Part shown: positions 20,909 to 58,863 of the stretch, piece by piece
Position numbering within the stretch: position 1 is the first letter of the stretch
Layout: every line of letters begins with the position of its first letter
Assembly (NCBI GenBank): GCA_963693015.1
Contig: OY843748.1
Location: forward strand, 1,024,395 to 1,088,394
Length of the DNA stretch: 64,000 nucleotides
Direction: 5' to 3'
Source of the DNA: a bacterium
GTDB taxonomy: Bacteria; JAAXHH01
Translations under genes and position numbers: made by a program
The notes under the pieces: generated by a model
What the model was told of the DNA's origin: nothing
Database searches by the model: none
What the model saw: only the letters and a program-made list of their open reading frames with translations

Positions 20909-21126
20909 TCAGTCTTCCTCTTCCTGTCGCCGGGTGACGAAAGCACCATGGAAACGACCCGGCCGTCGGCGGCCCGTCAGACGGGGTCAAATAGGTTGTG
21001 TATCGATTGCGGCGCGGCTATATTGCCGGTGGACTGAGCGCTATATTTCCCGGTCAAGAGATTAACGATAATCGAAGGACAAATCAACAGGATTTACCGG
21101 CGCACGACGGTACGATCTCTTATCTC

Positions 21127-21978
21127 ATGAGCAAACCCGACGACCTGGACGTCTATCTGTTCGACCTGCAGGGCTTCATCCGCCTGGAGCAGGCGCTGAC
21201 CAAAGCGGAAGTAGCGGAACTGAACGCCTGCCTGGACGAGATCCCGCCTCTTTCACCGGGCGATTGGCACGGCTACGTCCACGCCCATACCTACGGCACC
21301 GTGGACGGCCTGAACCTGCAGCAGATCTACGAGGCGGGCGCGCCTTTCGAAGCCCTGATAGACCATCCATCCTGGATCGACAGGCTCAAGCACTTCGTGG
21401 GCGGGGAGGGCACCTTCGACTATGCCCACGGCCCCCTGTTCATCGACGAGAACTTTGCCAATTTCCGGGAACCGGGCGAGGCGATCGGGCTGCATTCCGG
21501 GGGATTCCCGCCCATCATGCGCAACGGATTCCGCTATCACGGCGGCCGGTTCATGTGCGGTCAGATCAACGTGCTGATCGCCCTGACCGACATCGGACCC
21601 GGGGACGGCGCCACCATGGTCATCCCCGGCAGCCACAAGTCCAACTTCAGCCATCCGGACTTCGCCCGGCACGCCATGAAGCCGAAAGGCGCTTCCGTGG
21701 AGGGGATCACCGCTTCGATGGAACTGCTCATGGAAGCCGGGGACGCCCTGCTGTTCGTGGACGGCATCTCCCACGGATCGGCCATGCGGCGTAACGCGGG
21801 CACGCGGCGCATCGTGGTCTACCGGTACGGTCCCTCCTGGGGCAACTTCCGCCACGGGTACCGGCCGTCCCCCGAACTGCTGGAACGCCTGACGCCCGAA
21901 CGGCGCCGGATCGTCTGGCCGCAGCACGACTCGCCTGAAGGCGCCCCTTACCACCAGCCGGGTCAGGGCGGAAAGTGA
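21127..21978 (+). CDS. Phytanoyl-CoA dioxygenase (PhyH) family oxygenase
   Basis: Start MSKPDDLDVYLFDLQGFIRLEQ at 21127. HSGGFPP and GATMVIPGSHKSNFSHPD are PhyH-like. The track start at 20998 lies in AT-rich, promoter-like sequence and is rejected. The 3' end overlaps the convergent sulfatase gene by 16 nt. Confidence 0.75.
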   Translation: MSKPDDLDVYLFDLQGFIRLEQALTKAEVAELNACLDEIPPLSPGDWHGYVHAHTYGTVDGLNLQQIYEAGAPFEALIDHPSWIDRLKHFVGGEGTFDYAHGPLFIDENFANFREPGEAIGLHSGGFPPIMRNGFRYHGGRFMCGQINVLIALTDIGPGDGATMVIPGSHKSNFSHPDFARHAMKPKGASVEGITASMELLMEAGDALLFVDGISHGSAMRRNAGTRRIVVYRYGPSWGNFRHGYRPSPELLERLTPERRRIVWPQHDSPEGAPYHQPGQGGK

Positions 21979-23324
21979 AACCGCCAGCGCAGCCGCCTCC
22001 GCAGCGTCTGCACGACATCCGGCCGTTCGTTGGCCACGTTTTCCTGCTCGTCCGGATCGTCTTCCAGGTCGTATAGTTCCGTCTCGCCCGTGTGGTGCGC
22101 GACCAGCTTGTGTTTCGCCGTGCGTACCAGCCTGAACTCCCGCAGCGCACTCGCCGCTTCCTCGCGATGGGTCGACCGTTCACCGGTCAGCACGGCGCGG
22201 AAGTCCATCGCGTCAATACCCTCCTGGGCGGGCAGCCCCGCGAGGGCGCACAGGGTCGGATTGACGTCGATCAGTTCCACGAGGGCGTCGCAGGCCCGTC
22301 CCCCCGGTATGCCTGGTCCGGCGGCGATGAGCGGCACGCGCAGGGCCGCCTCGTAGGGCACGGACTTCGTATACAGGCCGTGGTCGCCCAGCATTTCGCC
22401 GTGGTCGCTGGCGAAGACGACGATGGTGTCCTCCGCCATGCCCCTGCGTTCCACGGCCTCGATGATCCGTCCCACCTGATCGTCGATCAGTTCGATGGCC
22501 GCGCAGTACTGCCGGCGGGTAACGGCGATTTCGTCGTCGGACAGGTCGCGCCGCCGGGCGTTGACCCATTCGGGCTTCCCATCGCCCGTTGCAGGCACGG
22601 CCGGCGGCATGGCCGCGTCCCGGTACCGGTCGGCGTATGCGGCAGGCGGATCGAAGGGGTCGTGGGGGCCCACGAAGCTCACGAAGAGATGCCACGGGTA
22701 GTCGTCGGGCACGGCGTCGATCCATTCCACGGCGCGGCGGCCGATGTAGACGTCCTCGAAGGCCTCGGCAGGCAGCACCGAGTCGTGGGACGCGCCTGCG
22801 ATCCAGCCCCGTGCCCCGCGGTCCGCGTAATCCGCCCGGAAGCGTTCGAAGAGTCCCTGCTCCTCCAGCCAGAATCCGTAGGGGCCTCTCGGTTCGTCGG
22901 CCATGCCCGCGTGCATCTTGCCCTCGCATTCCACGGGATGGGTGAATCCCCAGCCGAATACCCGCGGCCGGTCGCCGCGGCGTCCGTTGTAGGGGTCGGG
23001 CTTGGCCAGATCCAGCTTCCCCACGCACCCGACCCGGTAGCCCGCGTCCCGCAGGCGGACATAATAGGGCGTGATATGGCGGGGCAGGTAGCAGTTGTTG
23101 TCCAGGCAACCAAGCCGCGCTGGCTGGTACCCGCTGGCCAGGCCGATGCGGGCCGGGGCGCAGACCGGCGCGTTCGTGGTGCACTGCGTAAAGCGGATTC
23201 CGCGGTCCGCCAGCCGGTCCAGGTTCGGCGTGCGTACGAAGGACGCCCCCGCGGCCGACAGGTAGTCGTGGCGGTGCTGGTCGTCCATGATGAAGAGGAG
23301 GTTGGGGCGTGTGGTACTGGCCAT
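21963..23324 (-). CDS. Sulfatase (S1 family) without signal peptide
   Basis: 453 aa. MASTTRPNLLFIMDDQHRHD at the N-terminus. Formylglycine motif CAPARIGLASG. No leader peptide. Confidence 0.85.
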   Translation of the reverse strand: MASTTRPNLLFIMDDQHRHDYLSAAGASFVRTPNLDRLADRGIRFTQCTTNAPVCAPARIGLASGYQPARLGCLDNNCYLPRHITPYYVRLRDAGYRVGCVGKLDLAKPDPYNGRRGDRPRVFGWGFTHPVECEGKMHAGMADEPRGPYGFWLEEQGLFERFRADYADRGARGWIAGASHDSVLPAEAFEDVYIGRRAVEWIDAVPDDYPWHLFVSFVGPHDPFDPPAAYADRYRDAAMPPAVPATGDGKPEWVNARRRDLSDDEIAVTRRQYCAAIELIDDQVGRIIEAVERRGMAEDTIVVFASDHGEMLGDHGLYTKSVPYEAALRVPLIAAGPGIPGGRACDALVELIDVNPTLCALAGLPAQEGIDAMDFRAVLTGERSTHREEAASALREFRLVRTAKHKLVAHHTGETELYDLEDDPDEQENVANERPDVVQTLRRRLRWRFHFPP

Positions 23325-23398
23325 GATGGCGTCTCGCTTCTGTCCCGGTTGATCCCGATCGCCATTCAGACGCTATCGGAGGTTTTTGAGGTCATGCC

Positions 23399-25381
23399 TC
23401 AGTTAATAAACGATTCGAACCTGTGGGGCGTCGCCGGAAACCACAGGCTGTCCGCCAGGTACGACAGCGCCATCCCGAGGACGTACCCCACCAGGACGCC
23501 GAGGAAGAGGGGCTGCGCCTTGCGGTAGAGCGCTCCGCCGCCCAGCCGAAGCAGGACCACCTGGATGATCCAGGCCAGCAGAAAGGGCAGGAACATGAAC
23601 CGCACGGTGTCCGCGGCCACGGCGACCAGGCCGATGGGATGCAGCGGCCACCAGAGGAACAGGTACCGCGCGAGAATCATCAGCATGTACAGGGCGACCC
23701 CGTTGCCGAAGAAGACCAGTTCCAGGTCCGATACGCTGCTCGCGCTGCTGTTCCACGTCATGATCGTGTTGTAGAAGAAGGGCACCAAGTCCCCGGGCTT
23801 GGAAAGGAGATTGTCGGCACCCACGGCATAGCCCGCGCTGATATAGTAGTAGAGGGAGGCGACCACGCTGGCGGCGAAGGCCAGGCAGATCCACAGAAAC
23901 AGGTGCCGGGTGGCCGGCCGCATCCAGCGCCGAAGATACGCGGTATGGGACAGCCCGATCATCGTGAAAGTCCGCCAGTTCCGGGCGAAAGCGTTCGTCA
24001 TGCCCAGCGCGGTGATGGTGGACGGGTTCATGTTTTCGGGACCGATGATGCCCCCGGTGAAGATGTTGGGGTTGACCGGCAGGTCCATGGCGACGAGCCC
24101 CGCCTCGGCGACGATGCGGGCCATGCCGAGATAGACGGTGAAGAGGACGGCCAGGATGACCACGCTGACCGGCAGCGACATGCCGATGCTGTAGAGCCAC
24201 GCCAGCAGGTAGAGCATGCCGACGATAAACCCGAAGACCGCGACGCGGTAGGAGAAGAACTCCTCCCCGTCATCGACCGACGGATCCCGCCGGAACGCCC
24301 TTCGCGCCACCGCCGCGAGGTGACGGCGGGCCATCCAGAGGCCCCAGGCCACCAGGGCGATCAGGGCGCCGATGGACTGCGTCCCCACCAGCCCGGTGGG
24401 CGACATGGTCGTCGCCGCCGAGATGCCGACCATGTTCAGCACACCGCGCTGCAGCGTGGTGAACAACAGGAAGAAGCACAGGCTGAAGAGGATCTCGGCA
24501 TTGATGAAGAAGGCGAAGCAGAGTACGAAGACGTTCAGTCTGATGGGAAGATCGGGGATGGAAGGGTGGACTTTGATGTACGCAAGATCGGGTCCCATGA
24601 TGGGTATGGGCGTTACGATGTCCCAGTAGGAAACGATATTCCATAGCACGGCCGCGAGCGACAGGCCCAGGCCGATCCGGAAGGCGGTCGTGCGGACCAT
24701 GGGCGGCTCGTCCTCGTCCTTCCGCACCCCCATCAGGTTGAGCGCCACCTCGCCCAGGGGAAACCGCAGCCGCTCGTGGCTGACCCACTGCTTCCGCAGG
24801 ATGACCACGATGCAGGCGCCGGTCCACATCAGGGCGGCGAAACACGACATCCACCAGAGCAGGGGCGAGATCCAGGCCATCCACGGGATCTGGTAACCCG
24901 GCGCGGCGCCCTCGTAGAAAACCCGCACCGCGTCGGTCTTGCCGCTGATCACCAGCCAGGCGGGCAGGGTGTCGAAGAACGTTTCCGCCCAGCGGTTTTC
25001 GGGACTGGCGTGGTAGAAGGGACCGGTGATGATGGACACCAGGTACCGCGTCATGCCCCAGTCGGGCACCATGGAGCCGATCAGGCCCATGGCGAAAATG
25101 ACGACCAGTTCGGAGGTCGCCAGGGCGTACCTGGGCGCGAGCGTCTTGAGCAGGACGTGGGGTCCCAGGATCAGCAGGAGGAAGGGAATGAGCAGTGCCG
25201 AGGGGAGATGGGCGTAGGTTACGTAGTTGTAGCCCGCGTGGTCGGCGGAGAATTGTCCCCACACGGCCACAACGACGGAAAGGGCGAGACCGATGACTCC
25301 CGCGCGCAGGGTTACGGCCGAGGAACCACGGGATCGCGATGTCTCTGGAGGCATGGCTTTCGCCTGTTCCGGGTTAGACAC
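23399..25381 (-). CDS. Polytopic membrane protein (660 aa), paralog of 17438..19432; putative transporter
   Basis: Same architecture and conserved blocks as the 17438 gene. Its start lies 6 nt downstream of the PhyH gene stop (25388), suggesting a PhyH-transporter-sulfatase operon on the minus strand. Confidence 0.75.
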   Translation of the reverse strand: MSNPEQAKAMPPETSRSRGSSAVTLRAGVIGLALSVVVAVWGQFSADHAGYNYVTYAHLPSALLIPFLLLILGPHVLLKTLAPRYALATSELVVIFAMGLIGSMVPDWGMTRYLVSIITGPFYHASPENRWAETFFDTLPAWLVISGKTDAVRVFYEGAAPGYQIPWMAWISPLLWWMSCFAALMWTGACIVVILRKQWVSHERLRFPLGEVALNLMGVRKDEDEPPMVRTTAFRIGLGLSLAAVLWNIVSYWDIVTPIPIMGPDLAYIKVHPSIPDLPIRLNVFVLCFAFFINAEILFSLCFFLLFTTLQRGVLNMVGISAATTMSPTGLVGTQSIGALIALVAWGLWMARRHLAAVARRAFRRDPSVDDGEEFFSYRVAVFGFIVGMLYLLAWLYSIGMSLPVSVVILAVLFTVYLGMARIVAEAGLVAMDLPVNPNIFTGGIIGPENMNPSTITALGMTNAFARNWRTFTMIGLSHTAYLRRWMRPATRHLFLWICLAFAASVVASLYYYISAGYAVGADNLLSKPGDLVPFFYNTIMTWNSSASSVSDLELVFFGNGVALYMLMILARYLFLWWPLHPIGLVAVAADTVRFMFLPFLLAWIIQVVLLRLGGGALYRKAQPLFLGVLVGYVLGMALSYLADSLWFPATPHRFESFIN

Positions 25382-25387
25382 GGGCGG

Positions 25388-26215
25388 CTACTCGATCCAG
25401 GGATCCAGGCGGAACAGTTTGCGTCCAAGGGGGGTGAGTGCGGCCAGGGCCTCCGGACTCAAGGGCCGGTCGGGGCCGGGCGCCAGCCGGGCCTCTTGTT
25501 CGGACAGGGGCTGCAGGCGGGTAAACTGGGCGATCCTCGGCGAAGCGTTGTGATTGGCGCTGGCGGAGTGGGGCATCAGGTGATGCATGAGCACGTAGTC
25601 GCCTGCGTCGCCCGTGACCTCCATGGACGACGGAAAATCGACGATTTTCCCCCAGCCGTCGTTGCGGGTCAGGCCGTCCGGTTCGTTGAGCATGATCTCC
25701 CGCACCCGGTTCGGCGCGCCGGGCACCACGTGGATGCCGCCGCCGTTTTCCTCCACCCTGTTCAGGTAATAGCATCCGCCGATGCCGATTCCCGTGCGCA
25801 GGAAACCCTCATTCAATTCCTCGGGACCTTTCGGCACGGCGTCGAGGTGGAGGTTCTGGAGCCGCCCCTCCATGGCGCGGTTCCGGAGGGTGATCCCCGC
25901 CGAGCCGTCCCACACCTGGATGTATTCGGTCCCCAGGATGTCCACGGCGGCGCCGTACAGTCCCTCGTTTTGCAGCAGCGGCAGCATCGCGGGTTCGAAA
26001 AAGCTGCCGTTCCCATCGGGATGATGGGGCTTGAACCGGCCGTGGTTCGCGTGATAGTGGTCCGGGATGACCAGGTCCCGCGGGATCAGGTCCAGCAGGA
26101 ACGCGCGGGCCCGGTTGACGACTTGGTCCTCCAGCGTCCCCTTCAGGACGATGTAGCCATCGGACCAGAATCGCGCCAGTTGCTCGGCGGTGAGGTAGCG
26201 GGGGTGGGTGGGCAT
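25388..26215 (-). CDS. Phytanoyl-CoA dioxygenase (PhyH) family oxygenase
   Basis: 275 aa. MPTHPRYLTAEQLARFWSDGYIVLKG...HHLMPHSASANH, a PhyH-like N-terminus and His-rich C-terminal motif. Confidence 0.8.
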   Translation of the reverse strand: MPTHPRYLTAEQLARFWSDGYIVLKGTLEDQVVNRARAFLLDLIPRDLVIPDHYHANHGRFKPHHPDGNGSFFEPAMLPLLQNEGLYGAAVDILGTEYIQVWDGSAGITLRNRAMEGRLQNLHLDAVPKGPEELNEGFLRTGIGIGGCYYLNRVEENGGGIHVVPGAPNRVREIMLNEPDGLTRNDGWGKIVDFPSSMEVTGDAGDYVLMHHLMPHSASANHNASPRIAQFTRLQPLSEQEARLAPGPDRPLSPEALAALTPLGRKLFRLDPWIE

Positions 26216-26264
26216 GAAAGAATGATAGCTCAGTTTGGAATTCAGATTACGTTCGATTTAGGGA

Positions 26265-26723
26265 TCACGGGCAGGTGTCCGGCCTTAACAGAGCTCTGTG
26301 GCTTCTGGTCTGATACACCCTCCCTCCGACAACTGATTTGAAGTCCGCATGCAGGTCAGTATCACCTGAAACCAACAGTTTAACTCCCGCTACACGAGCC
26401 AGCGCGATTATATCTGGGTCATCAGACTGCAACACTGGCAACGTGTTTTTGACCGTTTCAACGTCTTGCGCCGGATATTGCCTAAGACTATTGCTTTCGC
26501 GGTATCGGTCGAACTGCTGTCTCATCTTTTCGTGTCTGTCTAACTCCTGCTTCAGTTTCTCTGTTGGCGAATAAACCATTTTCCCCTTGCTTCTCATCCA
26601 CCTTCTAACCGGTTCCATATCTATGTTGTCGGGATTTACGTAGTCACTAAACTTATTGGCATCCAATATCAGACACATGTCTCCACTTTCATTTGGATAA
26701 GCCGAGCAGCTTATCCGATTCAT
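26265..26723 (-). CDS. Small PIN-like (DUF4411-like) protein, second gene of the low-GC ATPase module
   Basis: An internal start MCLILDANKF at 26678 sits 10 nt after the ATPase stop, behind AAGTGGAGA. LILDAN...DDPDIIALARVAGVKLLVSGDTDL shows a PIN-like pattern of conserved acidic residues. GC is clearly below that of flanking genes. Confidence 0.5.
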   Translation of the reverse strand: MNRISCSAYPNESGDMCLILDANKFSDYVNPDNIDMEPVRRWMRSKGKMVYSPTEKLKQELDRHEKMRQQFDRYRESNSLRQYPAQDVETVKNTLPVLQSDDPDIIALARVAGVKLLVSGDTDLHADFKSVVGGRVYQTRSHRALLRPDTCP

Positions 26724-28062
26724 CGATGAAGAAATCTCTGTAGCCTCGCGGAACGCCCAGCAGATTCGCCTGTTCGTCGAATCGAATGTTATGGACTTTT
26801 ACGTGGTTTCCAACAGGTTCCAGGTATATGAGTGATACATCCTCCGGTGCGATTCCTCCATTCATAATCTCAATTCGAGCTCTGTTTATCATAGCGTCGC
26901 TATGTGTCTCAATTACATACTTATGTTTCTCTCGTTTGATGGTTTCAATCAGCAACGAAGACAGCTCAGCCTGACCTTTGGGATGCAAATGGACCTCTGG
27001 TTGTTGCATCAGGAAGATCGCTCTTCGCCGCCCGTCTAGAATACGAACCAAGATGGGAAGTATCTGGTTTACACCGTATCCTACGTCAATCAGGTTCGCC
27101 TTGGGACCCTTGACCTTTACTTGCAACTGGAACGGATCCCCCGACGACCTTCCTAGCCTCCTTACATAAATATCAGTAAACAAGCCGGAAAACCTGCCAA
27201 ATTCGATCAGTCGATCTCGTAGTTTCTCCCAACTTTTCTTATCAGTCCTCGATATATTCATGAGAACCATAGGAATATCACTTCCTTCGGGACTGACGTC
27301 CTCCCTTAAAGGATTATAGGTACGTTGTGGACTAGACCGGATCGGTGCAAAACTATACATCTCAGGCTGACCGAATCCCGCGTTCTCGTAAAGGTGGTCC
27401 CATTCTTGGTCAAAGTGTTTCATCGTGTTTTTTTTGAATTCTTTAAATGCTTTCACCTCTTTGGGAATCGACTTCTTAGAGGCACCGAAAACTATGAGCG
27501 TATCATCGATAGTCGATCTCGGAAACATTTCCAACAGTGTTGAGTCGAACCATGACGCTTCTGACACTCTTAGTTTGAATTTCCCGGATTCCGCGCCTTC
27601 GATGTAATCAACTATTTCAACACCATGGAACAACTCCGGCTGTTTTTGTCGGACGATTTTCTGATCATTCCAGACAAAAAGGGCTTCGCCATAATCTGAT
27701 ACGATCTTCTGCTCCCTTAGAACGGGCTCGGAACCTCTCTCTTTCGCAGCCAATGTCAATGAATACTCGATTGATTCACTGTCTGCATCGGCTTGTAACT
27801 CACAGCCAATCAGAAAACGATCCAGCTTGGGATTTGATCTCCTTACAATTTCGGAAAACGCACCCATCTGGTAAGGGTTTACGTTGAAATCCAATCCAGA
27901 GCGCCTTCCGCAGATGAAATCATGTGCCGTATGCAAACAGCCCAGCGCAGTGGTCTTGCCCGTGCTGTTCTCACCCACCAGGAACGTAAGCGGCCGGATT
28001 TCAAATACTTGCCTGCCGGCGAAACATCGAACGTCTTCCAGGATAAGTTTGCGTACGTCCAT
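26689..28062 (-). CDS. AAA_21/AAA_15-type ABC-like ATPase (OLD/AbiL-type N-terminal ATPase fold) with a C-terminal extension
   Basis: 457 aa. Walker A FLVGENSTGKTTALG near the N-terminus. Distal Walker B and H-loop block IFLMQQPEVHLHP...VIETHSD. Low GC. Confidence 0.75.
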   Translation of the reverse strand: MDVRKLILEDVRCFAGRQVFEIRPLTFLVGENSTGKTTALGCLHTAHDFICGRRSGLDFNVNPYQMGAFSEIVRRSNPKLDRFLIGCELQADADSESIEYSLTLAAKERGSEPVLREQKIVSDYGEALFVWNDQKIVRQKQPELFHGVEIVDYIEGAESGKFKLRVSEASWFDSTLLEMFPRSTIDDTLIVFGASKKSIPKEVKAFKEFKKNTMKHFDQEWDHLYENAGFGQPEMYSFAPIRSSPQRTYNPLREDVSPEGSDIPMVLMNISRTDKKSWEKLRDRLIEFGRFSGLFTDIYVRRLGRSSGDPFQLQVKVKGPKANLIDVGYGVNQILPILVRILDGRRRAIFLMQQPEVHLHPKGQAELSSLLIETIKREKHKYVIETHSDAMINRARIEIMNGGIAPEDVSLIYLEPVGNHVKVHNIRFDEQANLLGVPRGYRDFFIDESDKLLGLSK

Positions 28063-28115
28063 TTACCTGACTCCGCGGTTTGCTAATGGGGCGACCGCCG
28101 TTTCGGTTCTCCCCT

Positions 28116-28865
28116 TCACACCGCCCAGTACTTCCAGAGGTCCTCTGGAATCTCGTATCGGAAGGACTGCTCCAGGTGTCGTTCGTGGTTCCAGCGGGCG
28201 AAGAGGGCGAAGCGCGGCGAATGGCTGGTGTTTTCGGATCCATTGTGGGTCAGGTAGGAATGCCAGAGCACCACGTCGCCGGCCTTGGCAGCGAATTCCC
28301 TGCCGCCGGTGGTCGGGTTGTCGCAGAACACGTCCCAAGAGAAGCCCTCAATCTCAAGGAAACTGCCGTCCACATGGGACGGATGCTCAAGAAAATACCG
28401 GTGGGCGGCGTGGTGGCTTCCGGGCCAGTAGATCAAGGCGCCGCCGCCGGGTTCCACGTCGTACAGGTAGGCCGTCGCGCCGATCATGAAGGGCAGCCAG
28501 CGTCCCCCGTAGGCGTCGATATGGCCTGTTTTCGGCATTTCCCACGACTTCCCGGGCTCGGGCCAGCGTATGATGGGAATGCCGTCACCCGCGACAAATG
28601 TGCCGCCGCTGAGCTGGTCGATGATCGCCATCATCCGCGGATGGTGCACGAGCGCCGATTCCGGTGGGTCGTATTCGTACCCGTCGAGGCCGCTCGTCTC
28701 CCTCGGCCAGGTCGCGGGGTCCTCCAGGGTGCCGTCAAGCGCCCGCCAGATCTGACGCCGCCATCCCTTGAGGGTTTCTTCGTCGAACACGTCCTTCAAA
28801 ACCAGGTAGCCGTTCAGCTTGAAGTGGGCGATCTGCTGGGCGTTCAGGGGCTGTGAAGCGGACAT
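28116..28865 (-). CDS. Phytanoyl-CoA dioxygenase (PhyH) family oxygenase
   Basis: 249 aa. QQIAHFKLNGYLVLKDVF...HHAAHRYF...LWHSYLTHNGSEN. Confidence 0.8.
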   Translation of the reverse strand: MSASQPLNAQQIAHFKLNGYLVLKDVFDEETLKGWRRQIWRALDGTLEDPATWPRETSGLDGYEYDPPESALVHHPRMMAIIDQLSGGTFVAGDGIPIIRWPEPGKSWEMPKTGHIDAYGGRWLPFMIGATAYLYDVEPGGGALIYWPGSHHAAHRYFLEHPSHVDGSFLEIEGFSWDVFCDNPTTGGREFAAKAGDVVLWHSYLTHNGSENTSHSPRFALFARWNHERHLEQSFRYEIPEDLWKYWAV

Positions 28866-29124
28866 TTGTGTTCCTCAGAGGCGTATGAAATAGTTGCGAA
28901 GACCGTTAATCCATCCCGGATCAAGGCTGCTATCGGCCGGCGAAGATTGACTCTGCTTTAAGGTGTCTGAAGAACACGGACCGATCATGGATCAAAGATG
29001 AACTTAAGCGGCGTGGCACACCCTGTCAAGACCCGCGGCATTCGAGGCCGAGCCGTCCTGCAAAAGGACGGTTCGTTCCTGCTTGACACGATGCACGTAA
29101 CCCGTATACCATTGCAGAATGCCG

Positions 29125-29164
29125 GGCGCATGCAGAGCGCCAGGCGTATGCAGAGCGCCAGGCG
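29125..29164 (+). repeat. Two tandem copies of an approximately 20-nt unit (gcgcatgcagagcgccaggc / gtatgcagagcgccaggcgc) in a divergent intergenic region
   Basis: Direct reading. It lies in the 416-nt spacer between divergent genes (PhyH at 28865 on the minus strand and the hypothetical at 29281 on the plus strand). Confidence 0.5.
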
Positions 29165-29280
29165 CAACTCCGGTCATCAGTAATCAGTACTCTTTTCACA
29201 TTTCAACCGTTCAACCACATTGTCCGCGGCGACTGCGCGACAAAAGGACATCGCGCAAGCGGTAAAAGGGACCTGACGCA

Positions 29281-29643
29281 ATGCAATCGGAAATCAGGCA
29301 ATGGATCGCCGAGAGCCGCAAGAAACTGGAGGGGAAGGGACTGGACGACGGGGACCTGGACCGGTTGGAAACGCTCCTAGATGACGAGCCCCGGCCGAAG
29401 ATCATGTATCTGACCGCACGGTCGACCAATATGCGGTCCGGGATCGTCGGCTGGGTCGTGTTCGTCCCGGGCGAGAAGCCGCAGCTCAGGCTGCCGGGCG
29501 ACGAGCCGCCCTACGAATCGGTGCTGGAGGCCGTGGCCGACGGGTGGCGCGTGGTGCAGTACCCCATCCCCAAGCTCTACGAATACAAGGACCTTGAAAA
29601 CGATTACGTGGGTTTCGATTTCATACTCGAAAAGTGGAACTGA
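29281..29643 (+). CDS. Hypothetical small protein (120 aa)
   Basis: Host-like codon usage. Its stop TGA lies inside the GAGGAGG ribosome-binding site of the downstream PhyH gene, suggesting co-transcription. Confidence 0.5.
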   Translation: MQSEIRQWIAESRKKLEGKGLDDGDLDRLETLLDDEPRPKIMYLTARSTNMRSGIVGWVVFVPGEKPQLRLPGDEPPYESVLEAVADGWRVVQYPIPKLYEYKDLENDYVGFDFILEKWN

Positions 29644-29656
29644 GGAGGCGCTTAAG

Positions 29657-30460
29657 ATGGCTGAGATCAGACCGACGATGACCGATGACGACGTGATGGA
29701 TTTCGTGGCGAAGGGATACGCGGTGCTGGAAACCATGGTGGATCCCGATTTCAATGAGCGGTGCCGCAACCAGGAGCCAGGACGCGCGAAGGACCTGGTC
29801 GGTTCACCCGAATTCATCCGCGAGGTCCTGCTCCATCCCCGGCTGGCGGGCGTGATCCGTTCGCTGCTCGGCCCCAATTTCCTGATGCCGACGGGAGGCC
29901 ACCATCACCTGATAAGCGAGCCAGTGGCGGGACAGGACTGGCATTCGGACGGCATTTCCGGTCTCGGTTACGAGATCAACGAACTCCAGTGCTACTATTA
30001 TCCGCAGGACGTGAATATCGAAGACGGGCCGACCATGATCCTGCCTGGTTCCCATTGCCGGGCGGTCAACCGCGACGCCCTGGCCCACTACGGGGATCTC
30101 ATGGGCCAGCTTTCGCTTGTCGTAAAGGCCGGCACCGTGGCCATAACCCGGTACGGCATCTGGCACCGGGCCGGTCCGAAGCTCAATCACAAACCCCGCA
30201 GCATGATCAAGTTCTCCTACTTCCGCAACGAGGCGCCGCGGCGCGACTGGGTGATCGATTCGGAAGAAATCCCCGCGTACCGGGATCGTCCGGCCGCGCC
30301 TTACACGAGCGGGGTGGAATCCTACCGGGACCTGAGACGCCGCATCCACACGTGGAACTGGCTCTGCGGGCTCAGCGAGGAAGAATTCATGACCCACGAC
30401 CGGTGGCGACCGGCCTACGAGACCGGTACGCAGCCCGTCGAGGAAGTCGCCATTCAGTGA
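29657..30460 (+). CDS. Phytanoyl-CoA dioxygenase (PhyH) family oxygenase
   Basis: The start MAEIRPTMTDDDVMDFVAKGYAVLE at 29657 follows GAGGAGG at 9 nt spacing. HHLISEPVAGQDWHSDG is PhyH-like. The track start at 29594 overlaps the previous gene. Confidence 0.8.
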   Translation: MAEIRPTMTDDDVMDFVAKGYAVLETMVDPDFNERCRNQEPGRAKDLVGSPEFIREVLLHPRLAGVIRSLLGPNFLMPTGGHHHLISEPVAGQDWHSDGISGLGYEINELQCYYYPQDVNIEDGPTMILPGSHCRAVNRDALAHYGDLMGQLSLVVKAGTVAITRYGIWHRAGPKLNHKPRSMIKFSYFRNEAPRRDWVIDSEEIPAYRDRPAAPYTSGVESYRDLRRRIHTWNWLCGLSEEEFMTHDRWRPAYETGTQPVEEVAIQ

Positions 30461-30504
30461 TCGTATAGGCGCGCCCCGATGATGCCATCGAAGGGGAGAC
30501 TGGA

Positions 30505-30662
30505 GCGGCCGGCTGGCGTGCTTGGCCGGAACGGGCGGCTGGAGCGCTTGACCGGAGCGGGCGGCTGGAGCGCCCGATTGAAGCGGGCGGCTGGAGCGCT
30601 TGACCGGAACGGTCGGCTGGAGCGCCCGATTGAAGCGGCCGGCGGGAACGACCGGCCGGAGC
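30505..30662 (+). repeat. Intergenic tandem repeat, about 25-26 nt unit x6 with two alternating variants (ggcggctggagcgcttgaccggagcg / ggcggctggagcgcccgattgaagcg)
   Basis: Direct reading of 30497-30662. Units abut with no unique spacers. It sits between the PhyH gene (end 30460) and the bicupin gene (start 30670). Confidence 0.7.
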
Positions 30663-30669
30663 GGACAAT

Positions 30670-31485
30670 ATGCGGATAACGCACACCAGGCGCGATGAAA
30701 TGCATCTCGGCGTCAGCCACGGCGGCGCCGCGGCGAGCTATTTCAACCCGGGGTTCGACGCGACGGCATTCAAGTCACCCTGGGGATTCATCCACTCGGT
30801 CATCTTCCCGCCCGGCAGCGGCATCGGCCAGCACAGCCACACCCACGCGGAAGAGATCTTCGTCACCATAGACAACGCCATGCAGTTCACCCACAACGGC
30901 CGCACGGCCGAAGTCGTGGGCGGCGCCGCGGTGCCCCTGCGCTCGGGGGAATCCCACGGCATCTACAACCACACGGACCAGGATACCTGGTTCTTCAATT
31001 TCCACTGCGTGGATACGGTCCGAGAACCGAAGCACGAGGACTTCGACGACCCGCGCATCGAGGTCGAGTTGGAGTCCACGGACCGGCTGCCCGTGGGACG
31101 GTTCGACCGCGCCCTGCTCAAGCCCCGACGGCACCACGGCGGACGGGGAGAGGTGCTCTTCCGGGAGGTGTGGGGAAGCCGGGATTTCCAGACGAATTTC
31201 GAATACCTCTGCCACGTCCTGCTGCCGCCGGGCACCTCCGTGGGCTATCACCGGCACGAGATCGTGGACGAGGCCTACATGATCATGAACGGCAGCGGAC
31301 GGATGACGGTGGACGAAGAGACAGCAGAGGTCGTCCGCGGGGACGCGATCCCGAATAACATGGGCGGCGCCCACGGCATCTTCAACCACACGGACGAAGA
31401 CCTCGAGCTCTTCGTCGTCGGCGTGAGCCTGGAGAAAGGCAGGGTGGACGCGACCGACCTGGGCGATGACCTGGCGGGACGCTGA
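30670..31485 (+). CDS. Bicupin (two cupin_2 domains) protein
   Basis: 271 aa with two His-containing cupin motifs (GQHSHTHAEEIFV...GESHGIYNH and GYHRHEIVDEAYM...GGAHGIFNH). Confidence 0.7.
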   Translation: MRITHTRRDEMHLGVSHGGAAASYFNPGFDATAFKSPWGFIHSVIFPPGSGIGQHSHTHAEEIFVTIDNAMQFTHNGRTAEVVGGAAVPLRSGESHGIYNHTDQDTWFFNFHCVDTVREPKHEDFDDPRIEVELESTDRLPVGRFDRALLKPRRHHGGRGEVLFREVWGSRDFQTNFEYLCHVLLPPGTSVGYHRHEIVDEAYMIMNGSGRMTVDEETAEVVRGDAIPNNMGGAHGIFNHTDEDLELFVVGVSLEKGRVDATDLGDDLAGR

Positions 31486-31520
31486 ACAACCAGGCATCCC
31501 ATGGAAACCGGAATCAACCT

Positions 31521-32324
31521 ATGACAGACGCAACCTTTCAAGCCCACGTGCTGGACCTGAAGGTCGAAGGATACACCATGCTGAAGGACCAGTTGACGGC
31601 GGAGGAATGCGCCGAAGCGCGTAAGGAACTGGCGGCCCGCTACCCCGACCGCGAGCGGGGCGGTTTCGAGTGGCTGTTCAACAAGGCGCGGGTCTTCGAG
31701 CGGTTCTACCAGCTTCCCGATCTCCTGCGGCTGGTCCGCCACTTTCTCGGACCCGACGCGCTCCTGAGCGCCGTGTACGGTTCGGTGGTCATGCCCGGCG
31801 AGGGCGGCGGAGGCCTGCATTCCGACAGCGGCATCACCGGGCACAACCGCGAGGCGTCCATGGCGGCGGCCGACGAGGGCCGGCGGATCACGAGCCATCC
31901 CATTGCCTTCAACGTGATCTTCTGCCTGAGTCCCTTTACCGGGACCAACGGCGCCACCGAGTTCGTCCCCGGCAGCCACCGGTTCGAGTATCTGAACGTG
32001 CCCGACTCGGCCTACGACAACGCCCGGACCGCCGTCGCCCCGGAAGGATCGCTCGTGCTCTTCGACGTCAACACCTGGCACGGCACGACGAAGAACCAGA
32101 CCGACGAGCCGCGCTACGCCGTGCTCAGTCCCTGGCGCCGCCGCTGGACCAAGTGCGAATACGAGATGGCCCGCGTGGTGAAGCCCGACGTGCTCGAACG
32201 GGCGGGCGAAGACGGGCCGGTCATCTTCGGTTTCCAGGCCCAGTCGCCCTACACCGAACTGTGGCAGTGGGACCGTGAAGAGGGCGGACCGAAGCCGGAG
32301 TTCAGCCACTTGCGGCGGGACTGA
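31521..32324 (+). CDS. Phytanoyl-CoA dioxygenase (PhyH) family oxygenase
   Basis: 267 aa. FQAHVLDLKVEGYTMLKDQL...GGGLHSDSG...TEFVPGSHRF. Confidence 0.8.
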   Translation: MTDATFQAHVLDLKVEGYTMLKDQLTAEECAEARKELAARYPDRERGGFEWLFNKARVFERFYQLPDLLRLVRHFLGPDALLSAVYGSVVMPGEGGGGLHSDSGITGHNREASMAAADEGRRITSHPIAFNVIFCLSPFTGTNGATEFVPGSHRFEYLNVPDSAYDNARTAVAPEGSLVLFDVNTWHGTTKNQTDEPRYAVLSPWRRRWTKCEYEMARVVKPDVLERAGEDGPVIFGFQAQSPYTELWQWDREEGGPKPEFSHLRRD

Positions 32325-32444
32325 AGCCGGTTGAAACGCGCAGCACCGCCGGATAAGCGAGCTGACGGCACCGCGGCGGGACTGACTCTGCCAGACGAAT
32401 GACCGGAAGGTACGGCGCGGCCGAGATGAGGACCGGAGGAACCC

Positions 32445-33566
32445 GTGAAAATCACCGACGTAAAAGTGCACCTGGTCGAGTCCTGGCGAAAATCGACGGA
32501 CATCGGTTCGCCGTGGATCTTCGTGCAGGTCTATACCGACGAGGGCGTCGTGGGCCTGGGGGACGCCACGAACTGGCCGGGCGGCACGATCATCGCCCAG
32601 TCCGTGGAGGAACTGGGCAAGCTCATCATCGGAGAGGATCCCTTCCATATCGAGTACCTGTACCACCGCATGTACTACGCCCTGGAGCAGATCGGGCAGA
32701 CCGGCGCGGTCATCGCGGCCGTCAGCGGCATCGAGATCGCCCTATGGGACATCGTGGGCAAGGCCACCGGCCAGCCCATCTACAACCTCATCGGCGGACC
32801 GTGCCGCGACCGCATCCGGTTCTACAGCCACGCGTCCGATCCGGAGGAATGCGCACAGCTGGCTGAAAAGGGCGTCACCGCCATCAAGGCGTACTTCCCC
32901 GCCGACCCGCTGGTCAGGGGGGAGCGCATCGACTCGCCTCGCTCCGTCACGCTGCGGGAAGAGAAGTTGGCCCTGGAACACATGCGCCGGTGCCGCGAGG
33001 CCGTGGGCGACGAGGTGGACCTCTGCACCGACGTGGGATGCCGGTACACCACGAGCGCCGCGATCCGCATCGGCAACCGGCTGGAGGAAATCGGCCTGCT
33101 GTTCTACGAGGAACCGGTCCACCCGGAGAACATCGACGCCCTGGCCCGGGTGACCGCGTCCGTCAACGTGCCGGTGTGCGTGGGCGAGCGGCGGTACACG
33201 CGCTTCGGCTTCCGGGACCTGATCGCCGCCCAGGCGGTGGACATGATCATGCCCGACGTGGTGCGCACGGGCGGCATCATGGAGACCAAGAAGATCGCCG
33301 CCATGGCCGAAAGCTACTACATGCAGGTCTCGCCCCACAATCCGAACAGCGCCTTGTCGACGACAGCGAGTCTTCACGTCATGGCCAACATCCCGAACGC
33401 CCTGGTGCTCGAATTCGTGGACGAAAAATGGGACGCCCCCTGGCGTGACGACCTGCTGACCGATCCGCCGGTCGTGGAAAGCGGCTATTTCCGGCTCCCC
33501 GAGAAACCGGGACTGGGAACGGAACTGAACATGGACGTCGTGGATAAGTATCGGTTCACCGGTTAA
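32445..33566 (+). CDS. Mandelate racemase/muconate lactonizing enzyme (enolase superfamily; D-galactonate dehydratase-like)
   Basis: GTG start behind GGAGGA. MKITDVKVHLV...VQVYTDEGVVGLGDAT...IEIALWDIVGKATGQPIYNLIGG and the metal-ligand region (DVGCRY, EEP, VSPHN) fit the MR/MLE family. Confidence 0.85.
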   Translation: MKITDVKVHLVESWRKSTDIGSPWIFVQVYTDEGVVGLGDATNWPGGTIIAQSVEELGKLIIGEDPFHIEYLYHRMYYALEQIGQTGAVIAAVSGIEIALWDIVGKATGQPIYNLIGGPCRDRIRFYSHASDPEECAQLAEKGVTAIKAYFPADPLVRGERIDSPRSVTLREEKLALEHMRRCREAVGDEVDLCTDVGCRYTTSAAIRIGNRLEEIGLLFYEEPVHPENIDALARVTASVNVPVCVGERRYTRFGFRDLIAAQAVDMIMPDVVRTGGIMETKKIAAMAESYYMQVSPHNPNSALSTTASLHVMANIPNALVLEFVDEKWDAPWRDDLLTDPPVVESGYFRLPEKPGLGTELNMDVVDKYRFTG

Positions 33567-33604
33567 GGGGCAAAGGGGCAGAGGGGCAAAGGAGCAGGGC
33601 CAAT

Positions 33605-45498: not shown

Positions 45499-45871
45499 GT
45501 CTGAACTCCGGCCAGCCACCGCATTTGCAATGGTAATGATAAACGTATTCGGCGGGTGCGGCAATCCATAATGGCGATCCGGATTGAGATTGCGACCTCG
45601 ACATGTATTCACTTTGATCCCGACAGTGCTGTTTTGAATAATGCGGAAAACCATGCAGGCGAGATGGACGTCGCCGTGATCACCGACCAAGGTCGAGTTC
45701 GACCTACAGATGACGCACGATTCGGATTTCGCCCCTTAACCCGGATGTGCGAAATGCAGTTAATCCTTATGTTCACGATTTTGTATTGCGTAACGATACA
45801 GAATACAGTATATTCCGGCATAACAGTAATCCATAAAGTACAGCATCTCCGATTCACAAAGGATACAAGCC

Positions 45872-49951: not shown

Positions 49952-50009
49952 ACGGTTTCAAGACGTTGATACGTCAATTGGACCCGTGAACAAGAACAGG
50001 ATATTCCAC

Positions 50010-52667: not shown

Positions 52668-52842
52668 TAACGCCGAACCGGTGGTGCTCAGTTTGCGCCA
52701 TTACCTCATTGTCGGGTTTCGCTTGAAGTTTTGACCCAATTCCTGCGGGGTTGTCCAGAGTTTAGACCGCAGATTGAGCGTCACGCAAATTACGGATTTA
52801 ACCGGTGCTGGGCGGCATCGTTATGTATCCGGAGGACCGCGA

Positions 52843-53730: not shown

Positions 53731-53886
53731 CCGATGGTTGTTGCTCTGCTGGAGACCGTGGTAGATTGTAACGTCTGGATATACTGCCACTCGGGTACCA
53801 GCTATCAAGCACAAGGTGATAATCGCTTCGGGCGGTCTGGGCTAGCTGGTAGCTACGTCGACTATCGCCGGAATACCATCTCCATC

Positions 53887-58320: not shown

Positions 58321-58494
58321 GGGATTGACCTTGAACAAGGTAGTACCGGGAACCACCCGGAACGGGGTGGAACGCTTCTGTCAACACGCGATTCCACAAT
58401 CAACTCTTGTTCAGTTGAGATCGGCAAAGGCGCAGATCACGAATTAGGAAGGTTGACGATCAGACGGTCAAAGCCAAGATGGTCCACTACCTTC

Positions 58495-58863
58495 TCACCC
58501 ATGTTGACTCGCCGATGTTTGATCCAAGTCAGTTGGGATTACCGATTCAAGCAAACGAATCAGTTCTGGCAAATCGTCCTCGACCGTCTTCCAGACTGTA
58601 TCGAGATTAATGTCGAAATAGGCATGTACGAGTCGATTGCGCATTCCGATGATCCGCTGCCACGGCATCTCTGACAAACGGCTACGCGTGGGTTCTGATA
58701 TCTGCGTCGCCGCCTCGCCAACAATCTCGATATCCTTGATTAACGCGAGGACGAGTTGGCGATCGTTGTCCAGGTCACTACGCGCATGTCCCTGAACGAA
58801 GGAAACTGCTTCCCGCGCGGCGTCCAACATGTGCCGTAAACGGATTTCGTCATCCCTGCTCAT
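58495..58863 (-). CDS. hepT: HepT (HEPN/DUF86) toxin
   Basis: 122 aa. The Rx4HxY motif in [14 protein letters not shown] is diagnostic of DUF86 HEPN ribonucleases. It overlaps the upstream MntA gene by 14 nt. Confidence 0.8.

What the first reader, a model, noticed from the sequence alone, without database searches (positions are those of the whole stretch)
26265..28062. Low-GC insertion of an AAA_21-type ATPase plus small PIN-like protein between PhyH paralogs
The two genes are much more AT-rich than their neighbours and interrupt a same-strand array of PhyH, transporter and sulfatase genes. The ATPase has an N-terminal Walker A and a distal Walker B/H-loop of the OLD/AbiL/Septu type. Its downstream partner is not the usual HNH, TOPRIM or DUF4276 (RloB) protein but a roughly 137 aa protein with a PIN/DUF4411-like pattern of acidic residues. 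This is a candidate small two-gene abortive-infection or defence module with an unusual effector.
Basis: partly seen in the sequence, partly recalled or inferred. Interest (0 to 1): 0.65.

Follow-up and report, generated by a model that had tools for sequence, protein, structure and literature searches.

The report
ABC-ATPase plus PIN nuclease defence pair
A horizontally acquired two-gene cassette, a nucleotide-binding sensor ATPase followed by a small PIN-type nuclease, sits in a variable hotspot between two metabolic genes. It is an uncharacterised sister family of a recently validated anti-phage system (HEC-03), not a new kind of system.

Summary
Window 26265-28062 carries two minus-strand genes at 47% GC against 64% in the flanks. 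This is the lowest-GC 1.8-kb stretch in the 64 kb, and close relatives have an empty site.

Gene 1 (457 aa) is an ABC ATPase, not an AAA+ ATPase. It belongs to the NsnB/HEC-03 "DUF3696" clade and has an invariant degenerate Walker B (QQPE in place of DEPE).

Gene 2 (137 aa, true start at 26678) is a PIN-fold protein. The model has pLDDT 94 and its top PDB matches are VapC toxins. The catalytic D-E-D-D set is conserved in 95-100% of 245 homologues.

The ATPase gene lies directly upstream of the PIN gene in 78 of the 80 genomes fetched (the other two have only a partial or displaced ATPase match). In about 16% of them the pair is embedded between mod and res of a type III restriction-modification (R-M) system. 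It is lower in GC than its flanks in 77 of 78 genomes. At this very site the alleles are shuffled among relatives.

The "unusual effector" claim is overstated. An ABC ATPase plus PIN pair is already validated as anti-phage system HEC-03, and Menshen uses a related ATPase with a PIN-like adaptor. This PIN family is only weakly related to the HEC-03 PIN and is not detected by PADLOC.

Verdict: a probable abortive-infection-type defence pair and a new variant of a known kind. Function is inferred, not shown.

The parts
26689..28062 (-). ABC ATPase gene (457 aa), NsnB/HEC-03-like 'DUF3696-type' clade
   Evidence: ORF. Pfam AAA_15 4.5e-17 and AAA_21 1e-12. PADLOC NsnB 3.6e-38 over the full length, PDC-M55A 4.8e-36, the HEC-03 ATPase model 1.7e-22, AriA 1.9e-18. 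AF2 model pLDDT 71.6, with top PDB matches SMC/Rad50 heads and PtuA. 28% identical over 180 aa to the HEC-03 ATPase, E 5e-17.
27949..27975 (-). Walker A / P-loop, residues 30-38 (GENSTGKTT)
   Evidence: G30, E31, N32, S33, T34, G35, K36 and T38 are invariant in 76 of 76 homologues; residue 37 is T or S.
27373..27705 (-). Variable middle region of the ATPase (about aa 120-230; ABC 'insert' region), candidate sensor surface
   Evidence: Poorly conserved in 76 homologues. dN/dS is 0.33-0.38 here against 0.07-0.08 in the rest of the gene. Identity drops to 15-40% in same-site alleles L093 and L095. Parts of the AF2 model are low-confidence here.
27064..27087 (-). ABC signature-motif position, residues 326-333 (DVGYGVNQ; 'GxG' as in NsnB)
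   Evidence: D326, G328, Y329, G330 and Q333 are invariant. The Menshen paper reports SGG replaced by GxG in NsnB.
26980..27015 (-). Degenerate Walker B plus LHP motif, residues 350-361 (FLMQQPEVHLHP)
   Evidence: Q353 in 76 of 76, Q354 in 75 of 76, and P355-E356 invariant. The canonical D-E pair is absent. HEC-03 has E-Q at this position and NsnB has E-N.
26899..26910 (-). H-loop / sensor histidine, residues 385-388 (ETHS)
   Evidence: E385 76 of 76, T386 75 of 76, H387 75 of 76, S388 76 of 76.
26692..26850 (-). Conserved C-terminal region of the ATPase (about aa 405-457), equivalent to DUF3696; candidate PIN-docking tail
   Evidence: Strongly conserved block. The homologous region of the distant family member in L007 hits Pfam DUF3696 above threshold (30.8 bits, 3.5e-7). 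The window protein itself gives no DUF3696 hit at E<=1. The docking role is inferred from AlphaFold3 models of Menshen.
26265..26678 (-). PIN-fold nuclease gene (137 aa; the ORF is open upstream to 26723)
   Evidence: AF2 pLDDT 93.9, pTM 0.88. Foldseek PDB top hits are VapC toxins and archaeal PIN proteins, probability 0.99-1.0, TM 0.5-0.6. 15 of 29 family members hit Pfam PIN, best 4e-9. The putative catalytic residues D6 (26661-26663), E45 (26544-26546), D87 (26418-26420), D106 (26361-26363) and D112 (26343-26345) are conserved in 95-100% of 245 homologues.
28063..28115 (-). Upstream junction of the insertion (between the PhyH stop and the ATPase start; GGAG 8 nt before the ATG)
   Evidence: Homology to empty-site contig L096 ends at 28116. 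No sigma-70-like promoter was found. Sequence.
26216..26264 (-). Downstream junction of the insertion (between the PIN stop and the PhyH start)
   Evidence: Homology to L096 resumes at about 26203. No terminator and no flanking direct or inverted repeats.

Best explanation
This is a mobile two-gene anti-phage (abortive-infection-type) module, built like HEC-03 and like the NsnB-NsnC core of Menshen.

Proposed mechanism, all inferred:
- The ABC ATPase oligomerises and holds the PIN nuclease through its conserved C-terminal (DUF3696-like) region.
- Its fast-evolving middle insert senses an infection cue.
- Nucleotide binding drives a conformational change that releases or activates the PIN protein. 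Binding rather than fast hydrolysis is suggested because the Walker B acidic pair is replaced by Gln-Gln.
- The PIN protein then cleaves RNA in a metal-dependent way, most likely tRNA or rRNA as VapC toxins do. This stops translation and phage production.

Shown here: the folds, the motifs, the strict gene pairing, the insertion, the R-M embedding, purifying selection, and allelic shuffling.
Inferred: defence function, complex formation, trigger, substrate, and the role of ATP.
For: 1. Folds and motifs. The ATPase is an ABC ATPase of the defence clade. The PIN fold keeps an intact D-E-D-D set.
2. Same architecture and gene order as HEC-03. In that system both genes are required for phage defence in E. 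coli and induction is toxic. The ATPases are homologous (E 5e-17).
3. Strict linkage. In 78 of 80 species-level genome loci an ATPase homologue ends within a few nucleotides upstream of the PIN gene on the same strand. This also holds for a distant family member.
4. Guilt by embedding. In 13-14 of 80 loci the pair sits between the type III Mod and Res genes, at median distances of 3 and 29 nt.
5. Mobility. The pair is lower in GC than its flanks in 77 of 78 genomes from about a dozen phyla. Empty sites exist in relatives.
6. Hotspot behaviour. In relatives whose flanking proteins are 84-95% identical, the ATPase is 53-60% and the PIN 54-82% identical, with independent reassortment: L024 has ATPase 90% and PIN 56%, L093 has ATPase 55% and PIN 82%. 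A different DUF4325+PIN cassette occupies the same site in L092.
7. Selection. Both genes are under purifying selection (dN/dS 0.07-0.22), and the ATPase insert evolves 4-5 times faster.
8. Mechanistic precedents. Menshen NsnB4-NsnC2 models place the PIN-like domain between two DUF3696 tails. PARIS and Septu regulate a bound nuclease through an ABC ATPase.
Against: - No experiment exists on this family.
- The window PIN protein itself hits neither Pfam PIN nor any PADLOC model. Profile comparison with the HEC-03 PIN family is weak (probability 62-72%, 41-59 columns).
- Foldseek E-values to VapC are only about 1e-2, and profile searches against PDB sequences were not significant.
- The window ATPase has no DUF3696 hit.
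- In the window there is no adjacent defence gene, promoter or terminator.
- Gln-Gln in Walker B could mean a non-hydrolysing protein, so ATPase-driven regulation may not apply.
- No complex model could be computed with the tools available.
Confidence: 0.62

Rival explanations
1. It is a guard of restriction-modification systems, a retaliation module like PrrC or PARIS. The pair would be triggered specifically when a phage anti-restriction factor disables the neighbouring type III R-M enzyme. The stand-alone copy in the window would then be a detached, perhaps idle or re-targeted, copy. This is a more specific version of the main explanation.
For: The pair is embedded between mod and res with spacers of 3-30 nt in 13-14 of 80 genomes from several phyla. 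Payne et al. note that PrrC is found almost exclusively embedded in type I R-M systems and suggest that anti-restriction proteins could trigger embedded PARIS or Gabija systems.
Against: About 80% of loci, including the window, have no Mod or Res homologue within 6 kb. The pair is nevertheless kept under purifying selection there. HEC-03 works without its host system in E. coli lacking R-M systems.
Confidence: 0.2
2. It is a toxin-antitoxin-like addiction cassette. The PIN protein would be a VapC-like toxin and the ATPase its unconventional antitoxin, stabilising the genomic region or R-M locus without a dedicated anti-phage role.
For: The PIN protein is VapC-like. Expression of HEC-03 is toxic. 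The small cassette is mobile and low in GC, and a different PIN cassette (DUF4325+PIN) occupies the same site in L092.
Against: The partner is a 457-aa ABC ATPase with an invariant P-loop and a fast-evolving insert, not a small labile DNA-binding antitoxin. The toxin gene lies downstream. No relative was found on plasmids or phages, where addiction modules are common. The closest characterised architecture defends against phage and needs both genes.
Confidence: 0.12
3. The PIN protein is a non-catalytic adaptor or RNA-binding module, like the inactive PIN (inPIN) domains of Menshen NsnC. The real effector would be encoded elsewhere, or the pair would only sense.
For: The ATPase scores best against NsnB models. 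In Menshen every PIN-like domain examined lacks the catalytic residues and is predicted to dock on NsnB.
Against: D6, E45, D87, D106 and D112 are 95-100% conserved in 245 homologues. The protein is stand-alone (130-160 aa) in nearly all of the 150 best-scoring representative clusters listed, with no fused effector. No third gene is conserved.
Confidence: 0.06
4. It is a housekeeping nucleic-acid maintenance pair: a RecF/SMC-like ATPase with a processing nuclease used in DNA repair or RNA maturation.
For: Weak matches to SMC_N, RecF and Rad50. The ATPase model resembles SMC and Rad50 heads.
Against: The distribution is patchy, with empty sites in close relatives. GC and GC3 are foreign to the host. 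Alleles turn over at one locus. There is no coiled coil. The NCBIfam scores are far below the family cut-offs.
Confidence: 0.03

Closest known systems
HEC-03 (Hma-embedded candidate 03; Pseudomonas cichorii WP_025259138.1 + WP_025259137.1; Payne et al., bioRxiv 10.1101/2024.01.29.577857)
   Same: A two-gene cassette in the same order: a roughly 460-aa DUF3696-type ABC ATPase followed immediately by a roughly 140-160-aa VapC-like PIN protein. The ATPases are homologous (28% identity over 180 aa, E 5e-17) and share the motifs VG[FY]GV.Q, [EQ]QPE.HLHP and E[ST]HS, with a non-canonical Walker B. Both are found embedded in DNA-modification-based defence systems.
   Different: The PIN families are only marginally related by profile comparison (probability 62-72% over 41-59 columns). 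No PADLOC HEC-03 PIN-model hit was found for the window protein, and only 3 of 29 family members hit at 1.4e-3. The ATPase matches the HEC-03 model only over its C-terminal half and scores higher against NsnB. The hosts are mostly uncultured marine lineages and the embedding system is type III R-M, not Hma. Note that the PADLOC model names A and B appear swapped relative to the preprint text.
Menshen (NsnA-NsnB-NsnC; Millman et al. 2022; analysed in PMC12065111)
   Same: This is the best ATPase match: the NsnB model at 3.6e-38 over the full length. The NsnB peculiarities are shared: Arg at the Q-loop position, GxG instead of SGG, and a non-acidic Walker B. The downstream partner starts with a PIN-fold domain, which in Menshen is predicted to be clamped by two DUF3696 tails.
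   Different: There is no NsnA (ParB-DUF262) gene; the upstream gene is PhyH. The partner is PIN only, with no C-terminal BECR, Toprim or PLD effector. The PIN keeps its catalytic D-E-D-D set, whereas the Menshen inPIN domains lack it.
PARIS (AriA-AriB) and Septu / retron-Eco7 (PtuA-PtuB)
   Same: An ABC ATPase oligomer paired with a small nuclease whose activity it controls. The ATPase hits the AriA, PtuA and GajA models and the PtuA structures.
   Different: The effectors there are TOPRIM (AriB) or HNH (PtuB), not PIN. Those ATPase families are more distant (E 1e-9 to 1e-18, against 1e-38 for NsnB).
AbiL / RloA-RloB / HEC-01 (ABC ATPase + DUF4276/RloB Toprim protein)
   Same: An AAA_15/AAA_21-type ATPase plus a small downstream effector, often inside R-M loci.
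   Different: The partner here is not DUF4276/RloB. There is no such Pfam or PADLOC hit, and the fold is PIN.
VapBC type II toxin-antitoxin systems
   Same: The small protein has a VapC-like PIN fold and the acidic quartet.
   Different: There is no VapB-type antitoxin. The partner is a large ABC ATPase encoded upstream. The family also has conserved Cys2, Cys136 and His127, which are not part of the canonical PIN D-E-D-D catalytic set.

Membership tests
HEC-03 | DUF3696-type ABC ATPase component | tested here: inconclusive
   The PADLOC HEC-03 ATPase model hits at 1.7e-22 but covers only residues 212-448. BLASTP against the tested HEC-03 ATPase gives 28% identity over 180 aa, E 5e-17. There is no Pfam DUF3696 hit in the window protein, but the homologous ATPase in L007 hits it above threshold.
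HEC-03 | PIN-domain partner of the HEC-03 family, immediately downstream | tested here: inconclusive
   Position and fold agree. The window protein has no HEC-03 PIN-model hit at E<=1. 3 of 29 family members hit at 1.4e-3. hhalign against the HEC-03 PIN family gives probability 62.5%, and 71.6% against the single sequence.
HEC-03 | Both genes required for phage defence | not testable with these tools
   Shown only for the P. cichorii system.
Menshen | NsnA (ParB-DUF262 + ParBDB) gene upstream of the ATPase | tested here: not met
   The upstream gene is PhyH. No third neighbour is conserved in the 80 loci apart from Mod and Res.
Menshen | NsnB-type ABC ATPase (R at the Q-loop, GxG signature, non-DE Walker B, DUF3696 tail) | tested here: met
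   NsnB model 3.6e-38, covering profile positions 3-343 of 345. R242, GYG and QQ are invariant. The tail is homologous to a DUF3696-positive relative.
Menshen | NsnC: N-terminal inactive PIN domain plus a C-terminal toxin domain | tested here: not met
   The partner is 137 aa and PIN only, and the catalytic residues are conserved.
AbiL / RloAB (HEC-01-like) | DUF4276/RloB Toprim-like partner | tested here: not met
   No DUF4276 or RloB hit in Pfam, NCBIfam or PADLOC, and the fold is PIN.
PIN-domain superfamily (VapC-like) | PIN fold (Rossmann-like alpha/beta/alpha core) | tested here: met
   AF2 pLDDT 93.9. Foldseek PDB top hits are VapC, PAE0151, AF0591 and Utp24, with probability up to 1.0 and TM 0.5-0.61, though E is only about 1e-2.
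PIN-domain superfamily (VapC-like) | Four conserved acidic residues (D-E-D-D) | tested here: met
   D6 96%, E45 95%, D87 100%, D106 99% (also D112 99%) in 245 sequences. The weak VapC alignment places D6 and D87 on the VapC 'FDTN' and 'LPDAIILATA' motifs. The geometry was not inspected because no coordinates were available.
PIN-domain superfamily (VapC-like) | Sequence match to Pfam PF01850 | tested here: inconclusive
   The window protein has no hit. 15 of 29 family members hit at E<=1, best 4e-9.
ABC ATPase (OLD/AAA_15-like defence clade) | Walker A, signature region, H-loop and ABC head fold | tested here: met
ABC ATPase (OLD/AAA_15-like defence clade) | Canonical Walker B hhhhDE (catalytic glutamate) | tested here: not met
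   The motif is hL[LM]QQPE, with Q353 in 76 of 76 and Q354 in 75 of 76.
VapBC toxin-antitoxin | Small VapB antitoxin gene upstream of the PIN toxin | tested here: not met
   The upstream gene is the 457-aa ATPase in the 78 of 80 loci with a full adjacent match.

The most novel reading that the evidence does not exclude
[quoted passage not shown] In it the PIN domain would be both the docking module and the effector. The ATPase would be an ATP-binding but essentially non-hydrolysing switch (invariant Gln-Gln Walker B) whose hypervariable insert sets phage specificity. The cassette would spread among phylogenetically unrelated symbionts of sponges and corals, often as a guard wired into type III R-M operons.
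Probability: 0.22. Interest if true: 0.65.

Novelty: new variant of a known kind. Interest (0 to 1): 0.45.

Why it matters
If the inference holds, it adds a large family to the ABC-ATPase-plus-nuclease class of anti-phage systems. The family comprises 1,842 clusters at 50% identity with E<=1e-3, and current tools (Pfam, PADLOC, NCBIfam) do not annotate it.

It offers a natural experiment for two open questions raised by the HEC-03 and Menshen papers. The first is whether ATP binding or ATP hydrolysis controls the effector; here the catalytic pair is naturally Gln-Gln. The second is what the PIN-like domain that docks on DUF3696 ATPases originally did; here it still looks catalytic.

The same-site allele series (empty, several reassorted ATPase/PIN combinations, and an alternative PIN cassette) gives ready-made chimeras for mapping specificity to the ATPase insert. 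It also extends the 'guilt by embedding' approach to type III R-M systems and to the defence repertoire of uncultured sponge and coral symbionts.

Tried and rejected
- Sequence-profile searches of the PIN family against PDB chains were not significant. VapC 7by2_B scored E 0.45.
- Foldseek against viral structures gave nothing informative.
- No flanking direct or inverted repeats, recombinase or tRNA explain the insertion.
- No sigma-70-like promoter, no terminator beyond chance, and no Rfam family were found in the region.
- No relatives of the PIN protein were found in the plasmid or phage collections, or in IMG/VR with the two peptide patterns. Alignment A4 was too diverse for a pattern scan.
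- The 136-aa ORF upstream of the ATPase in R-M-embedded loci was considered as a third component and rejected. It corresponds to the C-terminal part of Mod in other genomes and is absent from stand-alone loci.
- A 327-aa protein with a C-terminal match (P0332) has no ATPase neighbour. It was left unresolved.
- The Krishnan et al. 2020 classification of ABC ATPases is not held in the library.
- Co-variation between the ATPase C-terminus and the PIN protein was not pursued. Physical linkage confounds it, and the same-site alleles show no tight coupling (L024: tail 81-90% identical, PIN 56%).
Full report
OBSERVATION

Two minus-strand ORFs lie at 26689-28062 (457 aa) and 26265-26723 (152-aa ORF). 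GC drops to 0.44-0.49 across them, against 0.62-0.70 on both sides. The pair is 0.469 GC and its 5-kb flanks are 0.645. It is the lowest 1.8-kb stretch in the 64-kb window (z = -3.4). Third-codon-position GC is 0.50 and 0.54, against 0.82-0.88 in the four neighbouring genes.

There is a PhyH dioxygenase on each side (28116-28865 and 25388-26215), then a DUF6785/DUF6784 membrane protein and a sulfatase, all on the same strand.

The small gene almost certainly starts at the ATG at 26678, 10 nt after the ATPase stop and preceded by GGAG. 223 of 245 homologues begin with Met at this position and 222 follow it with Cys.

IT IS AN INSERTION INTO A HOTSPOT

A scan of metagenome contigs with the flanking PhyH protein found orthologous loci.
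- In L096 (flanking proteins 86-93% identical) and L117 the two PhyH genes are adjacent, separated by 135 and 107 nt.
- Nucleotide homology to the window ends exactly at the PhyH stop (28116) and resumes at about 26203.
- No repeats, recombinase or tRNA mark the junctions.
- Contigs L090 and L091 (97% nucleotide identity) and nine further genomes (82-86% nucleotide identity over about 13 kb) carry an ATPase-PIN pair at the same site.

In those relatives the flanking proteins are 84-95% identical to the window's, but the ATPase is only 53-60% identical and the PIN 54-82%. The two genes reassort:

| Locus | ATPase identity | PIN identity |
|---|---|---|
| L024 | 90% | 56% |
| L093 | 55% | 82% |
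| L095 | 60% | 54% |

. L092 carries a different low-GC cassette at the same site, DUF4325 (STAS-like) plus a PF01850 PIN protein.

Against L091, synonymous divergence is 0.28 in ATPase codons 1-230, but 0.026 in codons 231-457 and 0 in the PIN gene. This indicates a recombination breakpoint inside the ATPase gene.

Both genes are under purifying selection. dN/dS for the ATPase is 0.12-0.22, and the flanking genes give 0.07-0.15. ATPase residues 120-230 evolve 4-5 times faster at non-synonymous sites (0.33-0.38, against 0.07-0.08 for the rest of the gene).

THE ATPASE

Pfam gives AAA_15 (4.5e-17) and AAA_21 (1e-12). In PADLOC the best models are:
- Menshen NsnB (3.6e-38, full length)
- PDC-M55A (4.8e-36)
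- the HEC-03 ATPase model (1.7e-22, C-terminal half only)
- AriA, HEC-01A, GajA and PtuA, all more weakly

The AF2 model (pLDDT 71.6) matches SMC and Rad50 heads and the Septu/retron PtuA protein (E 5e-11 to 1e-8). It is therefore an ABC ATPase, not an AAA+ ATPase.

In 76 homologues the following motifs are conserved:
- The P-loop GENSTGK[TS]T is invariant.
- The Q-loop position is an invariant Arg (R242).
- The signature is DVGYGV[SN]Q.
- The H-loop is ETHS.
- The Walker B reads hL[LM]QQPEVHLHP. The canonical Asp-Glu pair is Gln-Gln in 76 of 76 and 75 of 76 sequences.

The Menshen paper reports the same oddities for NsnB: R for Q, GxG for SGG, and EN for DE. The tested HEC-03 ATPase has EQ at the Walker B position.

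The C-terminal 50 residues are strongly conserved. The window protein gives no DUF3696 hit, but the homologous ATPase next to the most distant PIN family member hits DUF3696 above threshold.

THE SMALL PROTEIN

The window protein has no Pfam, NCBIfam or PADLOC hit of its own. Other evidence places it in the PIN superfamily.
- 15 of 29 family members hit Pfam PIN (best 4e-9) and 6 hit PIN_3. Only one hits DUF4411, weakly.
- AF2 gives pLDDT 93.9 and pTM 0.88 with alternating beta/alpha elements.
- Foldseek against the PDB returns VapC toxins and archaeal PIN proteins at the top. Probability is 0.99-1.0 and TM 0.5-0.61, although E is only about 1e-2.
- In 245 homologues D6, E45, D87, D106 and D112 are 95-100% conserved, which is the PIN D-E-D-D pattern. 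Cys2, Cys136 and His127 are also conserved.

An exhaustive profile search finds 1,842 representative clusters at E<=1e-3 and 1,299 at E<=1e-10. Nearly all of the 150 best-scoring clusters listed are stand-alone proteins of 130-160 aa.

LINKAGE AND CONTEXT ELSEWHERE

Of 307 loci found in one-genome-per-species contigs, the best 80 were fetched. In 78 of them an ATPase homologue ends just upstream of the PIN gene on the same strand. The other two show partial or displaced matches. A more distant member shows the same pairing, next to a serine recombinase and an RHS toxin.

The only recurrent non-syntenic neighbours are a type III R-M Mod gene (13 loci, median 3 nt upstream) and a Res gene (14 loci, median 29 nt downstream). 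The pair is therefore embedded inside the R-M operon.

The pair is lower in GC than its flanks in 77 of 78 genomes, by 9.6 points on average.

The record titles are dominated by the following groups:
- Poribacteria (27)
- Latescibacterota (12)
- Binatia (10)
- Gammaproteobacteria
- Nitrospirales
- Entotheonella
- Gemmatimonadota
- others

From my own knowledge these are typical sponge and coral symbiont lineages, so this looks like horizontal spread within that community. No relatives were found in the plasmid, phage or IMG/VR collections.

COMPARISON WITH KNOWN SYSTEMS

HEC-03 comes from Pseudomonas cichorii (Payne et al., bioRxiv 10.1101/2024.01.29.577857). It is a DUF3696 ABC ATPase followed by a VapC-like PIN protein. 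It protects E. coli from phages, both genes are required, and induction is toxic.
- The window ATPase is 28% identical to the HEC-03 ATPase over 180 aa (E 5e-17).
- The PIN families align only over the D..IALA...D.D.H region (hhalign probability 62-72%).

Menshen (PMC12065111) pairs NsnB with NsnC. In AlphaFold3 models the N-terminal inactive PIN domain of NsnC is clamped between two DUF3696 tails of an NsnB tetramer. PARIS and Septu regulate a bound nuclease in a similar way.

The window system has no NsnA and no C-terminal toxin domain, and it keeps the PIN catalytic residues. It is therefore not Menshen. By sequence it is not clearly a member of the HEC-03 family either. It has the same architecture and most likely works in the same way.

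MECHANISM (INFERRED)

- An ATPase oligomer sequesters the PIN protein through its C-terminal region.
- The variable insert (about aa 120-230) senses infection.
- Nucleotide binding then switches the complex and frees or activates the PIN RNase. Binding is emphasised because of the Gln-Gln Walker B.
- The outcome is abortive infection.

Rival explanations are an R-M guard (a more specific version of the same idea), a plain addiction module, a non-catalytic PIN adaptor, and a housekeeping function. They are weighed in the Rival explanations section.

VERDICT

This is an uncharacterised sister family of a known kind of system. It has three features of interest: an invariantly degenerate Walker B, a catalytically intact PIN where Menshen has an inactive one, and a well-resolved hypervariable hotspot.

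Noticed in passing
window 45800-60200: A second block of lower GC (0.53-0.58) looks like a separate defence island. It holds a 1359-aa protein with only an N-terminal HTH_3 match (45872-49951, +), a 956-aa AAA_13/SMC_N ABC ATPase (49797-52667, +), a 318-aa ORF with no hit, a 1489-aa fused Mrr_cat_2 + ResIII + Helicase_C + N6_Mtase enzyme resembling type ISP R-M (53887-58356, -), and a 330-aa protein with a CAP12/Pycsar TIR effector domain at 6.5e-40 (59152-60144, -).
   Followed up: partly
L092:1772-2853 (LXNJ01012910.1): In a close relative, the same intergenic site between the two PhyH genes holds a different low-GC cassette (0.47 against 0.60). It consists of a DUF4325 STAS-like protein (123 aa, 7.5e-16) and a PF01850 PIN protein (4.1e-11).
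   Followed up: partly
window 26265-26678 (protein residues C2, H110, H127, C136): The PIN family conserves Cys2 (91%), Cys136 (98%) and His127 (87%), plus His110. The HEC-03 PIN family likewise ends in a conserved C-P-x-H motif. This may be a metal site or a redox-sensitive pair. It could not be checked without the model coordinates.
   Followed up: no
L005:2791-4479 (also L033): Inside the same type III R-M operon, just upstream of the ATPase-PIN pair, there is a Peptidase_M78 (ImmA/IrrE-like) gene and a DUF4411 (PIN-like) gene, with an Imm_superinfect gene further upstream. Several small cassettes are therefore stacked between mod and res.
   Followed up: no
window 20000-34000 and L090: The region is an array of PhyH paralogues (at least three in the window and five or more in L090) interleaved with sulfatases, DUF6785 membrane proteins, cupin proteins and an enolase-superfamily gene. 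It looks like a sulfated-substrate utilisation cluster, of the kind I associate with sponge symbionts.
   Followed up: no
PADLOC-DB models HEC-03A and HEC-03B: The PADLOC model named HEC-03B hits the ATPase, and HEC-03A hits members of the PIN family. The preprint text calls the ATPase HEC-03A and the PIN protein HEC-03B. The labels appear to be swapped between the database and the paper.
   Followed up: no
L089:3186-4169 (P0332): A 327-aa protein matches the PIN profile over its C-terminal 135 residues (E 2.6e-30). It has no ATPase neighbour and lies among housekeeping genes (thymidylate kinase, DNA polymerase III delta', a tRNA synthetase). It may be a fusion or a mis-called ORF.
   Followed up: no
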